Part shown: one piece after another, positions 8,710 through 27,976 of the stretch | Numbering within the stretch: the first letter of the stretch is position 1 | Layout: every line of letters begins with the position of its first letter | NCBI GenBank assembly: GCA_048593225.1 | Contig: CM109175.1 | Span: 261,543,655 to 261,607,654 of the forward strand | Source of the DNA: Sarcophilus harrisii | Lineage: Eukaryota | Direction of reading: 5' to 3' | Length of the DNA stretch: 64,000 nt | Made by a program: the position numbers and the translations under genes | The notes under the pieces: generated by a model | The model's database searches: none | Told to the model about the DNA's origin: nothing | What the model saw: the letters and a program-made list of their open reading frames with translations, nothing else

Positions 8710-9780
8710 ATGTCTGGATCTGTGACCAGCAATGGACCTCATTTAAGAACTTGCTGTAAAAGAGCTTCAGGTGATAAAGATCTAAAGGATCCCAGCTTCA
8801 GCCTGCAAACAGTCAAGCCCTGTTGTGGTCCTTTCATGAGAGTCTCAGGGAGACAGCCACGAAGCTTCTCAGTATGTAGCAGGAACAGTAAAGACTGGAA
8901 GATGCTGGATCACCTTCAGAGTTATCCAAGCACAAATGAAATTTTACATGTGACCCCTGAGGAGTTCCATTTATGGAAGGTCCTACAGGAAACTCTGGAT
9001 TTTTCTCTTTGGAAGGTGAAAGTTGGCTGGCAACTAGTTGAGAACTCAGCAATCATTTCCTTCTCTGGACCCCAGAAAGTGGTCTCTAATGCCAAGACTG
9101 CCATCAGTAAACTGATGATCCTTCTCAATTCCACTGTGAGAATGAATCCATGGCCTGGTTTGATTCAAGAGCAAAAAAAGATGAGTGGTTTCTTTCAAGT
9201 AGGAAATGGCCTTAGTCTTTATCTTTGGAAAGGAGAAGCTTCCACCTTCCGAGCCTCTGTCATCATGAGCCTCAGCAGTGGGCCACTGGACAGACAAAAT
9301 AAGGTCAAACCAGTCCCCAAAGTAAGGGTACAGAGGCAGCATATCCTGAATGATCGAGGTATTCCCCAGGTGTTGCTACAAGTGGTGCTATCATCCTCCT
9401 GGGCTGGCCATAGCTCAGGGAGGAAGCTTACTTCTAGGGATGAAAGCCAGGAGCTGACTGCCAGTGCTGTCACTTTGGCACTGCAAGCTGCGTCTCAGGA
9501 GAAAAGTGCTTCTTTGGTAATCCACCCCACAGGTCCAACAGCCCTCGCAAAGGGGATAACTCAGGGAGTCAAGGCCTTTAAGAACATGCAGCCCATGGGG
9601 AGCAGCCTGAAGAATCTGACAGTTGCAGTAACTGATGATGACTTTGTAGCCGAGTGGGAGGTGGAATGTTGCAGGTGGTGGCCCAGTGGAAAGAATCTCC
9701 GCGTCCTCCTTCCCTACGTCATGAGCTCCTGGGAAGCAGTAACAACTGAGGTAGTGTTTGGAAGCCTCTTCAGCCAGAAA
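8710..9780 (+). CDS. PARP14-like protein, coding exon 1 of 10 seen (KH-like repeat region); ATG at 8710 is a candidate start
   Basis: Long ORF; in-frame stop at 8680..8682 just upstream; Kozak aaacATGt. Ends at consensus donor AAA|GTAAGT (9781). Segment HLWKVLQETLDFSLWKV resembles PARP14 PLWKFLQKK KH-like region. Phase 0 end. Confidence 0.65.
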
Positions 9781-10297
9781 GTAAGTGGTCACTACTGAGT
9801 CTGGTTCTCCTTAGGTCAGTGGTACACATGCAGCCTTGGAAAGAATCCATGATTGATCAACAGAAATGATCAACTGGGTAATGAGATTCTAGGAAAAGTT
9901 AAGGAACATGGGATAAAGAGAAACTTGGAGAAAAACAATAACATTTCTTAAATATTCCAAGGGATTCAGAAGCCATAACAATTTATTGTCTATCCCCTTT
10001 GAGAATAGAACAAAACAAAATAGGTTAGACATGAGAGGGAACATCTAGTCAGTGAAGTCAATAAGAAATGGTACAGGTGACCAAGGAGTCCTATGAACTT
10101 TCTGTGAGAATTTGTTAAAACATGAAGGATCTCTGTTTGGGTTAAGGTAAAAGTAATGGAGGTTTTGGCAATCTCAAAGCTAAAGGAAAATGGTTTAGAA
10201 TTCTATTACCTGATGAAAACTTTTTTTTAGAGGATGTTTATCTTAATTTTCCTTATTTTCATTCTTCTTTCTTCCTGAACTTTTCTTTTATTCACAG

Positions 10298-10492
10298 ACA
10301 GATGTGGTTGTTTTCCCTTGGATTCTGGAGCCCCACAATAAAAGTTGGGTCCAGGAGACTACTACTCAGGTCCGTACAGCCCTGGAGACCATTCTTACTG
10401 CCCAGAATCTTGTCCATGGAAATATCATCACCATTCCTGCTTCCAGCTTGCCTGGTCTGCATTGCCAGATCCTATATATCATCTGCCTGGAT
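10298..10492 (+). CDS. PARP14-like protein, exon 2
   Basis: Acceptor ttttattcacag|ACA, donor GAT|GTGAGA. 195 nt, phase 0 to 0, in frame with exon 1 (TDVVVFPWILEPHNKSWVQETTTQVRTALETILTAQNLVHGNIITIPASSLPGLHCQILYIICLD). Confidence 0.6.
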
Positions 10493-11050
10493 GTGAGATT
10501 GGTTCAACAGTGCCTAGAAGTTAGCAAGGTTTGGCCTAATGTTTGAATATAAATGAATTAAAAGACATTTAATCAAACATTTACTATGTGTAAAACATTG
10601 TACTAAATGCTGGCTTTACAAGTAGAAAAAGAAGGACAGTTCTTGCTCTCAAAGAACTCACATTCTAATGGGGGAGACTATGTACTTTAGGGTACAGCAG
10701 CAAGGCAGAGGGTAATGCATTTTCTTTAATGTCATTTCAACTGATAAAATCATATCTGTTTCTGATGCTTACTTATTTTATAATGCCAAAGGCTTTGGAG
10801 GTGAAAACTTTCTTCTTGAAATCTTTAGTACTTGTGGGTATTGAGACCAGGCTGTAGTAACTGTAAAAGCAGTTGCCAAATTGCATCTCCATAGAGTTGT
10901 TCTCTGGCACGATGGCTATAGAGATTGGGCTAAAAGCAAGAGCATGGTGTTGTCTGTGCTGCCTTTACTGAGGCTTTTAGGTTTTTCTGTTAGTGGAAGT
11001 TGGTGGCAATTATGAGGAAGATGAATCTTTTCAATAGTGATTGCTTCTTT

Positions 11051-11415
11051 CTTTCTTTTTTTTTTTTTTAATAGCCTTTTATTTACAGGATATATGCATG
11101 GGTAACTTTACAGCATTAACAATTGCCAAACCTCTTGTTCCAATTTTTCACCTCTTACCCCCCCCACCCCCTCCCCTAGATGGCAGGATGACCAGTAGAT
11201 GTTAAATATATTAAAATATAAATTAGATACACAATAAGTATACATGACCAAAACGTTATTTTGCTGTACAAAAAGAATCAGACTCTGAAATATTGTACAA
11301 TTAGCTTGTGAAGGAAATCAAAAATGCAGGTGTGCATAAATATAGGGATTGGGAATTCAATGTAATGGTTTTTAGTCATCTCCCAGAGTTCTTTTTCTGG
11401 GCATAGCTGGTTCAG
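11051..11415 (-). mobile_element. 5'-truncated L1 3' end flanked by 18-bp target-site duplication (tagtgattgcttctttct)
   Basis: Poly-T 11054..11070, then the shared L1 3'UTR unit. TSD copies at ~11033..11050 and ~11416..11433. Confidence 0.75.
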
Positions 11416-11974
11416 TAGTGATTGCTTCTTTCTATGGTGATTATGGAACCTGAATGGGAAACAGGACCAGTGGTCTGGGGGGTACTGCTATTCTGAAAGC
11501 TTTGGGGTTTAAGTCAGGGGTTATTTACTTCAGGGTGTGGGGGAAGGAGTAGGGATTGACTGGCCTGGCACATGCCAACTCTTGTCTTTTACTCAGGGTG
11601 TTTTACTACTTTAGCTAGGCTGATGTACTCATTCTATAGGTGCTGGTTATTTGACGGTTGATGGGGAAGACTCGGCCCTTCTCCAATAGAGTTGTTTTCC
11701 TATGGGTAGAAATAATGGTTGAGATTGGGCTGGAAGTAGGATCAATAGACTAGGTGGCACTTCTTTATGTCATATACTGTGTATAAATTGATCTTTATCA
11801 GGTCAATATCACATTCCCACTTTAAGACCCTTTGAGATGAAGGTAGTGAGTGTTGAGTTATGATTTCTCTTTACCTTATCTACCTTCTTATGGAGACAGG
11901 CTATACATATTTGTAATTATACTTGCATTATAATTACATTTATAATTATTTTAATTACTGTGATTGTTACTCAG

Positions 11975-26148: not shown

Positions 26149-26285
26149 AGATGAGCATCCCTCAACATTGGGAACCAATGGATGATAACCCAGTGAAGAC
26201 TGTGAAACTCTCATCAAATCAGGTGGAGTACCAGAGAGTAGCCCAGAAGTTCAAGTATTCCATGAATAAGACTACCATCCTTAAG
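26149..26285 (+). CDS. PARP14-like protein, exon 8 (WWE-to-PARP linker)
   Basis: Acceptor ctttttgtaatag|, donor TTAAG|GTGAAT. EMSIPQHWEPMDDNPVKTVKLSSNQVEYQRVAQKFKYSMNKTTILK matches PARP14 [37 protein letters not shown]. Phase 1 to 0. Confidence 0.8.
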
Positions 26286-26987
26286 GTGAATCATGTTTAT
26301 TGAATAGGTGATTACACTCATTAACTCAAGGTATAGGGAAAGTGTTAAACATAACATTATTAAAATCTTGTAGAAATATTATAGAGATCACCATTCCTAA
26401 AAACATTTTTTTATTGTCTCCACATTTATTATTATCTCTTTTCTTCACTACTTTCCTTCTCCTAAGCTGGTTTTGAATAATCTTTAAACCAGTATGTGTG
26501 GATTTAGACTGTAGCTGGAAAGGGTCTTTAGACATCATCTAATCCAAAAATTTGTTTTACAAATGGGAAAACTGAGGCCCTGAGAGAAGAAGCAATTTGC
26601 TCAGCATCATGCACTGTTAGATACAATTCTAGAGTCCAGGTCTTCTGTTCTCAGTCCAGTGCCTACTTTTTCCATTACAACAAATGAATATGTGAAATAT
26701 TTTTAAAAATTAGAAAAAAGGACAGTATGAAATCTAACCTCCTATTCCCAATCTCTCATTTCATAAGGTTCAAAGGACAATCACTATTAAAAGAAGAAGA
26801 GATGCTAGAGCTTTTTAGCTCTAGAAATAGATTTGGGAACTTTTAGTAGTGGAATTGGAAATTCCTTGCTTGTTCAATTAAATCTAATTTGGAAATGTAA
26901 GTGTTATGAAAACAAAATATACCTGGAAAAATATATTGATCTCATTTGGATGATAACAGGCTTTCTTTTTTCAATTTTGTTATTTAG

Positions 26988-27159
26988 ATAGAAAGAATAC
27001 AAAACCCATACCTCTGGACCTCTTACATTTACAAGCGAAACTGGATGGAAAAAAAGAATCCCCCAGGAGTACAGAATGAGCAGTTTCTCTTCCATGGAAC
27101 AAAAGCAAAAAACTGCTCATCCATTATTGAAAATGGGCTAAAAAGTACCTGTAGGAAAA
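26988..27159 (+). CDS. PARP14-like protein, exon 9 (PARP catalytic domain, N-terminal part with His of triad)
   Basis: Acceptor ttgttatttag|, donor AAAA|GTGAGT. IERIQNPYLWTSYIYKRNWMEKKNPPGVQNEQFLFHGTKAKNCSSIIENGL matches PARP14 IERIQNPDLWNSYQAKKK...NEKQLFHGTD. Confidence 0.85.
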
Positions 27160-27704
27160 GTGAGTATGCTGCGACTAAAAGAGGATATGCCTTAATGCTA
27201 CTGAAAAGGGTGAAATTCCAGACTATTTTTCCTGAATTCTGGGTTGATCTGACACACCAGTCTCCTGGTACTTTAGCTTTGATAATGGAACAAAATGAAA
27301 TATTTGTAGGTCATTTAAAGGAGATTTATTTAGATAAAAGAAGCAGGAGACGTGCCTATCAATAAGGATAGGTACTGAGGATATTTCTGGTTGACTTAGC
27401 TGATCAAGATTGCCCAAGTTGCCCATTGTGATCTACCTGCAGTCTCAGGTTGTCAAGAGCTTTTCATGTTTGTTTTGTATTCAGCAATTAGAAAGTTATA
27501 TCAGTAGTCCAAGACTTTAATTTCTTGTGCCAACTAAATTTTAGGGATGACCTCAATACCTTTTAAGGAAAAACTATCCTAGTTCATATTGGGGTGGGAT
27601 ACACTATTATTCCTACCACATCCTGTATTCATCTGTCCCAAGAGATACTTAGCTTCTCCATTGTTTTATATTCAAGACTTAATAACAAATGCTTATTTTT
27701 ATAG

Positions 27705-27976
27705 ATGGAAGATATGGCCAAGGGATCTACTTTGCAGTGGATGCTTATATGTCCTCCCAATTTTGTGGAAAAGGCTGTCAAGGATCCAAGTTTTTGTTCC
27801 AAGTTCGTGTCCTTACTGGGGAGTATGTTAAAGGTGATTCAGAACTAATATTACCTCCAAGAAAACCAGGAGGAGGGAGATATGATAGCTTGGTTGACTC
27901 GATGGGTATGCCAAGAATATTTGTAACCTTTTTTGATGACCATTCATACCCAGAATATTTGATCACATTTTGCTGA
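27705..27976 (+). CDS. PARP14-like protein, terminal coding exon 10 (PARP catalytic core; stop TGA 27974..27976)
   Basis: Acceptor gcttatttttatag|. GRYGQGIYFAVDAYMSS...QVRVLTGEYVKGDSELILPP...RYDSLVDSMGMPRIFVTFFDDHSYPEYLITFC* matches PARP14 AYGKGTYFAVNANYS...VRVLTGIYTHGNHSLIVPP...LYDTVTDN...LFVAFYDYQAYPEYLITFRK. Tyr and Leu complete the H-Y-L mono-ART triad. Confidence 0.85.

What the first reader, a model, noticed from the sequence alone, without database searches (positions are those of the whole stretch)
8710..27976. PARP14-like gene with KH-like repeats, WWE and PARP domains but no macrodomain exons
Ten exons with perfect splice-phase continuity give a 1355-codon CDS. Exon 5 ends at ...YRKENEL, homologous to PARP14 ...IELQENEV, the segment right before macrodomain 1. 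The next coding sequence, exons 6-7, already corresponds to the PARP14 post-macrodomain linker and WWE. The intervening 2.1-kb intron (19633..21775) contains only repeat-like, stop-riddled sequence. In PARP14 about 570 aa of three macrodomains sit exactly there. This suggests a macro-less PARP14 paralog (KH-like + WWE + mono-ART), an unusual architecture for the macro-PARP family.
Basis: partly seen in the sequence, partly recalled or inferred. Interest (0 to 1): 0.7.

Follow-up and report, generated by a model that had tools for sequence, protein, structure and literature searches.

The report
PARP14-like gene with hidden, relocated macrodomains
This is an intact, conserved Tasmanian devil gene for a PARP14-related ADP-ribosyltransferase that lacks macrodomains at the usual position but carries two highly diverged macrodomain-like folds at its N-terminus, so it is rearranged rather than macro-less.

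Summary
The gene is real. I rebuilt a 10-exon, all AG/GT, 1367-codon ORF on the + strand (8710-27976). It is 100% identical to the deposited Sarcophilus harrisii protein KAM9066655.1, annotated "uncharacterized protein". That intron holds no macrodomain remnant.

The "macro-less" reading is wrong. Exons 1-3 encode a KH-like fold followed by two diverged macrodomain folds. Pfam's Macro model misses them. A family profile against PDB, an AlphaFold model with Foldseek (top hit: PARP14 macro1+2 tandem, E 2e-11), and a canonical macro HMM scanned over the six-frame window (only significant hit: exon 3) all find them.

Alignment to canonical PARP14-like proteins is non-collinear, with the macros lying before the KH array. 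The rest is eight KH-like folds, then WWE, then an ART domain with an H-Y-I triad. The seventh KH is split by only about 45 residues, where PARP14 carries its three macros.

The glycines of the macro phosphate-binding loop are replaced (G-T-G to D-L-E).

Devil-opossum dN/dS is 0.32. Relatives were found in marsupials, reptiles, caecilians, lungfish and gar, and none were seen in eutherians.

It is an undescribed, domain-permuted PARP14-family paralogue of moderate interest.

The parts
8710..9780 (+). Exon 1 (aa 1-357). Contains the start codon and a poorly conserved N-terminus (aa 1-73). Then a KH-like fold 'KH0' (aa 74-143, nt ~8929-9138), macro-like domain A (aa ~160-340, nt ~9187-9729) and the first strand of macro-like domain B.
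   Evidence: Model, 100% match to the deposited protein. AF2 secondary structure beta-alpha-alpha-beta-beta-alpha at 74-143 and alpha/beta elements at 182-323. PDB profile hits PARP15 macro (E 7e-3) and SauMacro over this part. Foldseek tandem match to PARP14 macro1+2. Canonical macro HMM domain A hits in all family members, caecilian i-E 6e-7, devil 0.016.
10298..10528 (+). Exon 2 (aa 358-434): N-terminal half of macro-like domain B (KTDVVVFPW...).
   Evidence: Second-best hit of the canonical macro HMM in the six-frame window, HMM positions 21-68. Profile alignment to PARP14 macro 2 'KTDVVVNSVPL...'.
11975..12193 (+). Exon 3 (aa 435-507): C-terminal half of macro-like domain B (...SISFPILDLETTG...NTWMKLVQI). 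The acceptor is a NAGNAG.
   Evidence: Only significant canonical macro HMM hit in the window (E 1.2e-6, HMM 56-127). Loop-2 glycines replaced. A deposited isoform lacks Q435.
13190..13217 (+). Exon 4: 28-nt micro-exon (MTEYFRTPL + 1 nt) linking the macro module to the KH array.
   Evidence: Found from ortholog P0001. The exon and both splice sites are conserved in opossum.
18248..19632 (+). Exon 5 (aa 517-978): KH-like folds 1-6, the first part of split KH7 (aa 918-957), and the start of the short insert.
   Evidence: AF2 model with mean pLDDT 82 and repeated beta-alpha-alpha-beta-beta-alpha units. Foldseek hits to multi-KH proteins. phmmer 523-958 aligns to the KH array 142-587 of paddlefish PARP14-like. 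Weak Pfam KH_PARP14_4/6 hits.
19633..21775 (+). Intron 5: non-coding. It lies at the position where PARP14 has its three macrodomains.
   Evidence: 39-65 stops per frame; aligns with opossum intron 5 at 67-80% identity. No macro hit by tblastn or HMM. No tandem repeats.
21776..21836 (+). Exon 6 (aa 979-999): a helix within the ~45-residue insert (aa 958-1003) that splits KH7.
   Evidence: AF2: helices at local 453-468 and 474-488 with low pLDDT, lying between strand 2 and strand 3 of KH7.
23212..23739 (+). Exon 7 (aa 999-1175): second part of KH7, KH8 with its long helix, and the WWE domain (aa ~1105-1171).
   Evidence: Pfam KH_PARP14_8 at 1059-1090, WWE_1 at 1103-1154, WWE at 1105-1169. The top Foldseek hit is the PARP14 WWE structure 1x4r.
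26149..26285 (+). Exon 8 (aa 1175-1220): start of the ART (PARP catalytic) domain.
   Evidence: Pfam PARP at 1201-1318, E 1e-19. Alignment to PARP15/PARP14 catalytic domains.
26988..27159 (+). Exon 9 (aa 1221-1278): ART domain with the NAD-binding His (FLFHGT, H1256).
   Evidence: Alignment to the PARP15 catalytic domain, E 4e-40. Positions.
27705..27976 (+). Exon 10 (aa 1278-1367 plus stop): ART domain with Y1286 (GIYFAV) and I1349 (RIFVTF) at the position of the PARP1 catalytic Glu. Ends ...YPEYLITFC*.

Best explanation
The locus is a functional protein-coding gene of the Tasmanian devil, annotated as LOC111719603 / ACOB8E_013072, 'uncharacterized protein'. It encodes a 1367-aa paralogue of the PARP14 family.

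Domain order:
- a variable N-terminus;
- one KH-like fold;
- two diverged macrodomain folds;
- eight KH-like folds, the seventh split by only a ~45-residue helical insert;
- a PARP14-type WWE domain;
- an ART domain with an H-Y-I triad.

Compared with PARP14, the N-terminal RRMs are absent. The macro module sits in front of the KH array instead of inside KH7.

Shown:
- the exon structure, the folds and the non-collinear homology;
- purifying selection on every domain;
- presence of the same architecture in marsupials, reptiles, caecilians, lungfish and gar.

Inferred:
- The protein is a mono-ADP-ribosyltransferase, like PARP10/14/15, which share H-Y-hydrophobic triads.
- Its macro-like domains no longer bind ADP-ribose in the canonical way, because the glycines of the diphosphate-binding loop are replaced by Asp/Leu/charged residues throughout the family. 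They would then serve as structural or protein-interaction modules.
- The KH-like array lacks any GXXG loop, so it more likely acts as a scaffold or partner-binding surface than as a classical RNA binder.
For: Gene model:
- 10 exons, all AG/GT, no stop.
- 100% identical to deposited devil protein P0145.
- Same 10-exon structure in opossum. Micro-exon 4 and its splice sites are conserved.

Selection (devil-opossum dN/dS):
- overall 0.32;
- macro A 0.27, macro B 0.40, KH array 0.29, WWE 0.22, ART 0.25.

Macro folds:
- Family profile against PDB: the top 12 hits are all macrodomains (PARP14 macro 2 E 1e-4, PARP9 macro 2 3e-4, PARP15 7e-3).
- AF2 model searched with Foldseek: PARP14 macro1+2 tandem E 2e-11 over 289 columns, followed by PARP9 macro 2, macroH2A, YmdB and Af1521.
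- Canonical macro HMM built from 289 domains: exon 3 hit at E 1.2e-6, and two domains per family member.

Permutation (phmmer against canonical PARP14-like proteins):
- aa 523-958 aligns to residues 142-587 (KH array);
- aa 342-500 aligns to 820-983 (macro);
- aa 1013-1366 aligns to 1250-1613.

KH array, split KH7 and WWE:
- AF2 model with pLDDT 82.
- Foldseek hits to PARP14 WWE and to multi-KH proteins.
- Pfam hits.
- In PARP14 the macros are inserted in a split KH domain (PMC10450202).

ART domain: PARP15 E 4e-40, PARP14 6e-35. H1256, Y1286 and I1349 align with the PARP15 triad positions.

Degenerate pocket:
- HMM position 107 is Gly in 262 of 289 canonical macros and in 0 family domains.
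- Position 105 is Gly in 195 of 289 canonical macros, and Asp in most family B domains.
- The framework residues S98 and P102 are kept.

Distinct lineage:
- Lungfish and paddlefish each have both a canonical PARP14-like protein and a family member.
- The ART domains of the tetrapod family form a clade with 99% bootstrap support.
Against: - Pfam's Macro model gives no hit at E<=1 in devil, opossum, alligator or lizard.
- The N-terminal AF2 model has low overall confidence (mean pLDDT 55; macro A region 45-80).
- Evidence for macro-like domain A in the devil protein alone is weak (HMM i-E 0.016). It rests on the family profile, the tandem Foldseek match and stronger hits in caecilian and paddlefish.
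- No transcript data could be examined. Expression and the exon 3-4-5 joins rest on conservation and on deposited models.
- Loss of ADP-ribose binding, mono-ART activity and the role of the KH array are sequence-based inferences, not measurements.
- In the ART-domain tree, the gar and lungfish members do not resolve with the tetrapod clade.
Confidence: 0.75

Rival explanations
1. One reading: a truly macro-less PARP14 paralogue (KH-like + WWE + mono-ART only), the macrodomains having been deleted.
For: No Pfam Macro hit. No macro remnant in intron 5. The precomputed Pfam lists for all orthologs lack PF01661.
Against: Four independent lines place two macro folds in exons 1-3. These are the profile against PDB, AF2 plus Foldseek, the canonical macro HMM on the raw six-frame window, and phmmer against canonical PARP14-like macros.
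Confidence: 0.04
2. The same architecture, but the N-terminal macro-like domains are still functional ADP-ribose (or related nucleotide) readers or erasers using a non-canonical pocket.
For: The domains are under purifying selection comparable to the ART domain (dN/dS 0.27 and 0.40). The framework residues S-I-x-F-P before loop 2 are invariant. PARP14 macro 2 itself has a non-GGG loop 1 (alignment).
Against: The loop-2 glycines, present in 67-91% of 289 canonical macros, are replaced by Asp/Leu/charged residues in all family B domains. The Asn after 'DVVV' is replaced by F/L/V. Loop 2 is not conserved between marsupials and reptiles.
Confidence: 0.15
3. The model merges two adjacent genes (a KH-macro-macro gene and a KH-WWE-ART gene), or the locus is a decaying, unexpressed pseudogene.
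For: Only computational gene models were available. The exon 4 link is just 28 nt. One UniProt model (A0A7N4UZA8, 708 aa) joins the N-terminal exons directly to the ART exons.
Against: The ORF is intact over 4.1 kb. The opossum has the same 10 exons, with exon 4 and its splice sites conserved. dN/dS is 0.32 with every domain below 0.5. The same collinear order appears in caecilian, alligator, squamate, lungfish and gar proteins. Deposited isoforms differ by NAGNAG acceptor choices typical of transcript evidence.
Confidence: 0.05

Closest known systems
PARP14 (ARTD8/BAL2)
   Same: Eight type I KH-like folds, including a split seventh one and a KH8 with a long helix. A PARP14-type WWE (PF22005). 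A C-terminal ART with an H-Y-hydrophobic triad. The macro folds are most similar to PARP14 macro 1+2.
   Different: No RRM domains. Two macro-like domains rather than three macros. The macros lie N-terminal to the KH array instead of inside KH7, which keeps only a ~45-aa insert. The macro phosphate-loop glycines are lost. The third triad residue is Ile, not Leu. The gene sits next to the CCNB1IP1 snoRNA host gene, and canonical PARP14-like proteins coexist with it in wombat, lungfish and paddlefish.
PARP9 (BAL1)
   Same: Two macro folds near the N-terminus associated with a KH fold, followed by KH and ART. PARP9 macro 2 is among the best sequence and fold matches. The PARP9 architecture is described in PMC10450202.
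   Different: PARP9 has no WWE, only a few KH domains and, from established knowledge, an inactive triad. Here WWE, eight more KH-like folds and H-Y-I are present. PARP9-like proteins match the N-terminal profile much more weakly (E ~1e-5) than PARP14-like ones do (1e-16 to 1e-26).
PARP15 and PARP10 catalytic domains
   Same: The best solved-structure match of the ART domain is PARP15 (E 4e-40). The H-Y-I triad is the one known for PARP10 (the triad identities are from established knowledge).
   Different: PARP15 lacks the KH array and WWE. PARP10 has RRMs and UIMs, and no macro or WWE.

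Membership tests
PARP14 orthologue | N-terminal RRM domains | tested here: not met
   No RRM_PARP14 Pfam hit in the 1367-aa protein, although canonical PARP14-like proteins give such hits. tblastn with full-length canonical PARP14-like proteins finds nothing upstream of 8710.
PARP14 orthologue | Array of eight type I KH folds, the seventh split and the eighth with a long helix | tested here: met
   AF2 model of aa 508-1180, pLDDT 82, with eight beta-alpha-alpha-beta-beta-alpha units. 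Foldseek hits to multi-KH proteins. Pfam KH_PARP14_8 at the cut-off, with weak KH4 and KH6 hits.
PARP14 orthologue | Three macrodomains inserted in the split KH7 | tested here: not met
   The KH7 insert is ~45 residues (aa 958-1003). Intron 5 has no macro signal.
PARP14 orthologue | WWE domain followed by an ART with an H-Y-hydrophobic triad | tested here: met
   Pfam WWE_1, WWE and PARP hits. The PARP14 WWE structure 1x4r is the top Foldseek hit. H1256, Y1286 and I1349.
PARP14 orthologue | Collinear full-length homology with canonical PARP14, and a single lineage | tested here: not met
   phmmer segments are non-collinear. The tetrapod family ART clade (99% bootstrap) is separate from mammalian PARP14/15. 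Both kinds coexist in lungfish and paddlefish.
PARP14 orthologue | Location in the DTX3L-PARP9-PARP14 gene cluster (established knowledge for human) | tested here: not met
   Within the 64-kb window the downstream neighbour carries SNORD126 and SNORA79 and a RING-finger exon, which is CCNB1IP1-like. No DTX3L or PARP9 sequence was seen.
Macrodomain (PF01661 / macro fold) | Match to Pfam Macro at the curated threshold | tested here: not met
   No hit at E<=1 in devil, opossum, alligator or lizard proteins. There is a faint hit only in paddlefish (E 0.0085).
Macrodomain (PF01661 / macro fold) | Homology to canonical macrodomains by profile methods | tested here: met
   Family profile against PDB: the top 12 hits are all macrodomains, best E 1e-4. 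Canonical macro HMM: exon 3 at E 1.2e-6 in the six-frame window, and domain B at 26-39 bits in all nine family members tested. phmmer against PARP14-like macros, i-E 2.6e-7.
Macrodomain (PF01661 / macro fold) | Three-layer alpha/beta/alpha macro fold | tested here: met
   AF2 model searched with Foldseek against PDB: PARP14 macro1+2 at E 2e-11, then about 170-column matches to PARP9 macro 2, macroH2A, YmdB and Af1521 with TM-score (target-normalised) 0.6-0.67. Caveat: the model's mean pLDDT is 55, and 66-85 over domain B.
Macrodomain (PF01661 / macro fold) | Glycine-rich diphosphate-binding loop (P-A-I-G-T-G) and the Asn after the first strand | tested here: not met
   Position 107 is Gly in 262/289 canonical domains and 0/13 family domains. 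Position 105 is Gly in 195/289 canonical domains, and Asp in 7 family B domains. 'DVVVN' is 'DVVV(F/L/V)' in the family.
Macrodomain (PF01661 / macro fold) | ADP-ribose binding or hydrolysis | not testable with these tools
   Needs recombinant protein and binding or hydrolysis assays.
Mono-ADP-ribosylating PARPs (H-Y-hydrophobic, clade 3) | His and Tyr of the NAD pocket present, catalytic Glu replaced by a hydrophobic residue | tested here: met
   Alignment to the PARP15 catalytic domain: FLFHGT, YGQGIYFAVDA and PRIFVTFFD align with LLFHGT, YGKGTYFAVDA and PKLFVVFFD.
Mono-ADP-ribosylating PARPs (H-Y-hydrophobic, clade 3) | NAD-dependent mono-ADP-ribosylation activity | not testable with these tools
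   Biochemical assay required.
Type I KH nucleic-acid-binding domain | GXXG loop between helices 1 and 2 | tested here: not met
   The only GxxG strings in the protein lie in the WWE and ART domains. None lies in any of the nine KH-like folds.
PARP9 | Two macrodomains, few KH domains, no WWE, inactive triad (established knowledge; architecture in PMC10450202) | tested here: not met
   WWE is present, there are eight further KH-like folds, and the H-Y-I triad is intact.

The most novel reading that the evidence does not exclude
This is an old, unnamed lineage of macro-PARPs that arose before the split of ray-finned and lobe-finned fishes. It survives in gar, lungfish, caecilians, reptiles and marsupials but was lost in eutherians. 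In it, the macro module was moved from inside KH7 to the N-terminus and lost its ADP-ribose pocket. That would make a 'pseudo-macrodomain' PARP whose macro folds act as a regulatory or partner/antagonist-binding surface rather than as ADP-ribose readers.
Probability: 0.3. Interest if true: 0.6.

Novelty: new variant of a known kind. Interest (0 to 1): 0.42.

Why it matters
PARP14, PARP9 and PARP15 are fast-evolving, interferon-linked macro-PARPs studied almost entirely in eutherians. This locus shows that marsupials and many non-mammalian vertebrates keep a further PARP14-family gene. Its domain order is permuted, and its macro folds are invisible to standard domain annotation.

If confirmed, it would have three uses:
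- It is a natural experiment on what the macro module contributes when its ligand pocket is lost and its position changes.
- It warns that 'no Pfam Macro hit' does not mean 'no macrodomain'.
- It gives a candidate for lineage-specific innate immune function in marsupials, including the Tasmanian devil.

It is not a new kind of system. Every domain belongs to known families, and the gene model is already in public databases.

Tried and rejected
- tblastn of macro-bearing PARP14/15 fragments against the window found only WWE and ART exons. BLAST is too insensitive for the diverged macro exons.
- Pfam on single exons and on the full protein gave no Macro hit.
- The third homologous-protein search, using the N-terminal profile, returned only one protein and added nothing.
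- The look-up of encoding contigs for the Sminthopsis ortholog found no record. The opossum locus was used instead.
- The afdb50 Foldseek library was unavailable, so the closest AlphaFold-database neighbour could not be determined.
- An ISRE-like motif scan (GAAANNGAAAS) gave 3 matches in 64 kb, equal to chance, with none near the 5' end. There is therefore no sequence support for interferon induction.
- Tandem Repeats Finder on intron 5 found nothing.
- Literature searches found no description of this family. Daugherty 2014 (PMC4038475) mentions marsupial PARP14-like sequences only in the PARP14/15 duplication context. The 2026 PARP14 review (PMC13224862) and the DTX3L-PARP9 preprint do not mention it.
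- The ART-domain NJ tree does not resolve where the gar and lungfish members sit, so the age of the lineage rests on the shared N-terminal architecture only.

Full report
**What is in the sequence**

Reading the + strand between 8.7 and 28 kb, I rebuilt the gene from open frames, splice signals and one ortholog. The ten exons are 8710-9780, 10298-10528, 11975-12193, 13190-13217, 18248-19632, 21776-21836, 23212-23739, 26149-26285, 26988-27159 and 27705-27976. Every intron is GT...AG, the phases are continuous, and the product is 1367 aa with no internal stop.

The 28-nt exon 4 was located from the dunnart ortholog. The protein is 100% identical over all 1367 residues to KAM9066655.1, 'uncharacterized protein ACOB8E_013072 isoform 1-T6' of Sarcophilus harrisii. 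The window is therefore Tasmanian devil, and the model already exists in public databases.

The stated 1355 codons is 12 short.

Pfam on the full protein gives:
- PARP (aa 1201-1318, E 1e-19);
- the PARP14-type WWE_1 (1103-1154) and WWE;
- KH_PARP14_8 (1059-1090), plus weak KH_PARP14_4 and KH_PARP14_6 hits;
- no Macro hit even at E<=1. The same is true for the opossum, alligator and lizard homologs.

Intron 5 looks like ordinary intron:
- It has 39-65 stops per frame and no tandem repeat. One dispersed repeat copy is shared with 31.2-31.6 kb.
- It aligns over most of its length with opossum intron 5 at 67-80% identity.
- Neither tblastn with macro-bearing PARP14/15 proteins nor a canonical macro HMM finds anything in it.

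**The part that does not hold**

By eye, exon 2 (KTDVVVFPW…) and exon 3 (…SISFPILDLE…) resemble the two halves of a macrodomain, and the second half of exon 1 resembles another. I tested this in four ways.

1. A 12-sequence profile of the N-terminal 507 residues (alignment A1) was searched against all PDB sequences. It returned 14 hits, of which the top 12 are all macrodomains. They are PARP14 macro 2 (E 1e-4), PARP9 macro 2 (3e-4), PARP15 macro (7e-3, covering the first domain), bacterial macro hydrolases and macroH2A.
2. An AlphaFold2 model of this region has mean pLDDT of only 55, but 66-85 over aa 345-500. Searched with Foldseek against PDB, its best matches are the PARP14 macro 1+2 tandem (E 2e-11, 289 aligned columns). 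These are followed by PARP9 macro 2, macroH2A, YmdB and Af1521.
It was scanned over all 2918 stop-free segments of the six-frame window.
   - The only significant hit is exon 3 (E 1.2e-6, HMM positions 56-127).
   - The second and fourth best hits are exon 2 (HMM 21-68) and exon 1, in the right register.
   - The same HMM finds two domains in each of nine family members, from gar to devil.
4. phmmer of the devil protein against canonical PARP14-like proteins of paddlefish and lungfish aligns aa 342-500 and 242-500 to their macro regions (i-E 3e-7 and 7e-7).

The gene is therefore not macro-less. Two diverged macro folds (A, aa ~160-340; B, aa ~341-500) are encoded by exons 1-3.

**Architecture**

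The phmmer segments are non-collinear:
- The devil KH region (523-958) matches the PARP14-like KH array (142-587), which in PARP14 lies before the macros.
- The devil macro region (342-500) matches residues 820-983.
- Devil 1013-1366 matches 1250-1613 (KH8-WWE-ART).

A second AlphaFold2 model (aa 508-1180, mean pLDDT 82) shows eight consecutive beta-alpha-alpha-beta-beta-alpha units followed by a WWE fold. The seventh unit is interrupted after its second strand by a ~45-residue, low-confidence two-helix insert (aa 958-1003). That insert spans the exon 5/6/7 junctions. The eighth unit ends in a long helix leading into the WWE.

Foldseek gives the PARP14 WWE structure 1x4r as the best hit, then other WWE domains and multi-KH proteins such as GLD-3, FMRP, FBP and PCBP2.

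This matches the published description of PARP14, in which six KH domains are followed by a split KH carrying the three macros and then KH8-WWE-ART (PMC10450202).

The homologous segment of the gar protein passes Pfam's KH_PARP14_5 threshold.

No RRM domain is found by Pfam, and tblastn finds none upstream of 8710.

The full order is: variable N-terminus, KH0, macro-like A, macro-like B, KH1-6, KH7 with a short insert, KH8, WWE, ART.

**Functional state of the domains**

- **ART domain.** It matches solved PARP15 (E 4e-40), PARP14 (6e-35), PARP12 and PARP10 catalytic domains. FLFHGT, YGQGIYFAVDA and PRIFVTFFD align with the PARP15 motifs. This gives H1256, Y1286 and I1349, an H-Y-hydrophobic triad of the mono-ADP-ribosylating class. 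Activity is inferred, not shown.
- **Macro-like domain B.** It keeps the framework S-I-x-F-P (S98 in 12/13 and P102 in 13/13 aligned family domains). The diphosphate-loop glycines are gone. HMM position 107 is Gly in 262/289 canonical domains and in none of the family. Position 105 is Gly in 195/289 canonical domains, and Asp in most family B domains. In devil, P-A-I-G-T-G has become P-I-L-D-L-E.
- **Other pocket features.** The Asn after the first strand (DVVVN) is F/L/V, and loop 2 differs between marsupials and reptiles. I infer loss of canonical ADP-ribose binding. This is the least secure step.
- **KH-like folds.** None of the nine contains a GXXG loop. Classical nucleic-acid binding is therefore doubtful, and a scaffold or partner-binding role is at least as likely. 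KH-like domains of PARP9, DTX3L and PARP14 are reported to mediate protein-protein contacts (title and abstract of PMC11080071).

**Is it a live gene?**

The opossum locus (L001) has the same ten exons. Exon 4 and both of its splice sites are conserved.

Nei-Gojobori dN/dS between devil and opossum is 0.32 overall:

| Region | dN/dS |
|---|---|
| macro A | 0.27 |
| macro B | 0.40 |
| KH array | 0.29 |
| WWE | 0.22 |
| ART | 0.25 |
| first 73 residues | 0.72 |

Deposited devil isoforms differ by NAGNAG acceptor use at exons 3 and 5, which is typical of transcript-based models. I could not examine RNA data.

**Relatives**

- Orthologs at 74-94% identity exist in all marsupials sampled. Homologs at 32-37% identity occur in squamates and alligator.
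- An exhaustive HMMER search with the N-terminal profile found the same N-terminal module at the N-terminus of proteins from turtles, crocodilians, caecilians, lungfish, gar and paddlefish. All are named 'uncharacterized protein'.
- Lungfish and paddlefish also have a canonical PARP14-like protein with RRMs and Pfam-detectable macros. Wombat has a PARP14-like fragment with a macro. This is therefore a separate paralogue, not PARP14.
- All strong representatives that carried no name best-match reptile members. None looks eutherian or monotreme. This is negative evidence only.
- In a neighbour-joining tree of ART domains, the tetrapod members form a clade with 99% bootstrap support, separate from mammalian PARP14/15. 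The fish members are unresolved.
- The N-terminal profile matches PARP14-like macros (E 1e-16 to 1e-26) far better than PARP9-like proteins (~1e-5).
- I found no paper describing this family.

**Verdict**

It is a distinct PARP14-family paralogue without macros at the canonical site, but it is not macro-less. The macro module is relocated to the N-terminus and has diverged beyond Pfam's reach, with a degenerate ligand loop.

The gene model is already public but uncharacterised. I rate it as a new variant of a known kind, of moderate interest (0.42). A tandem-duplicate fusion is a plausible origin of the permutation, but I did not test it.

Noticed in passing
window 52281-52357, 57102-57178, 59437-59582 (+): Two SNORD126 copies and one SNORA79 reach the Rfam gathering scores. 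From memory these snoRNAs sit in introns of CCNB1IP1 in human, so the PARP gene lies directly upstream of that host gene on the same strand.
   Followed up: partly
window 63826-63999 (+): An open frame at the window end, starting NMSICEDMLLCNYRKCRIRL…, hits Pfam zf-RING_5 (E 1.5e-8). By memory it looks like the first coding exon of CCNB1IP1/HEI10.
   Followed up: partly
window ~44200-47300 (+): Stop-interrupted retroviral pol remnants: RNase H (45778-45981) and integrase core (46231-46629) by Pfam. This is a degraded endogenous retrovirus between the PARP gene and CCNB1IP1.
   Followed up: partly
window 11969-11977 and 18242-18250 (+): NAGNAG acceptors at exon 3 (CAG|CAG) and exon 5 (TAG|AAG). 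Deposited devil isoforms lacking Q435 or E517 correspond to use of the downstream AG.
   Followed up: partly
P0151 (UniProt A0A7N4UZA8, devil, 708 aa): A deposited model joins the N-terminal KH/macro-like exons directly to the ART exons (aa 1175-1367), skipping the KH array and WWE. It also carries T46 instead of S46. It could be a real short isoform or a prediction artefact.
   Followed up: no
P0010-P0016 (squamate homologs, 1700-1754 aa): Squamate members are ~380 aa longer than the marsupial and alligator ones. By eye, the lizard sequence contains an internal duplication of a block of KH-like repeats.
   Followed up: no
P0193 (Polyodon spathula, 1770 aa): The paddlefish member with the same N-terminal module ends in C2H2/Di19-type zinc fingers. 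It has no Pfam PARP hit, so it may be a family member that lost or swapped its catalytic domain.
   Followed up: no
window 20099-20596 (+) and 31191-31628 (-): A ~500-bp dispersed repeat, 67% identical, is shared between intron 5 and the region downstream of the gene. It is the only 'repeat-like' element found in intron 5.
   Followed up: partly
window 62000-62700: The most G+C-rich stretch of the window (0.44 for 62001-64000) has a 200-codon open frame (62088-62687) rich in Pro/Gly/Ser. It may be a CpG island or an untranslated exon of the downstream gene.
   Followed up: no
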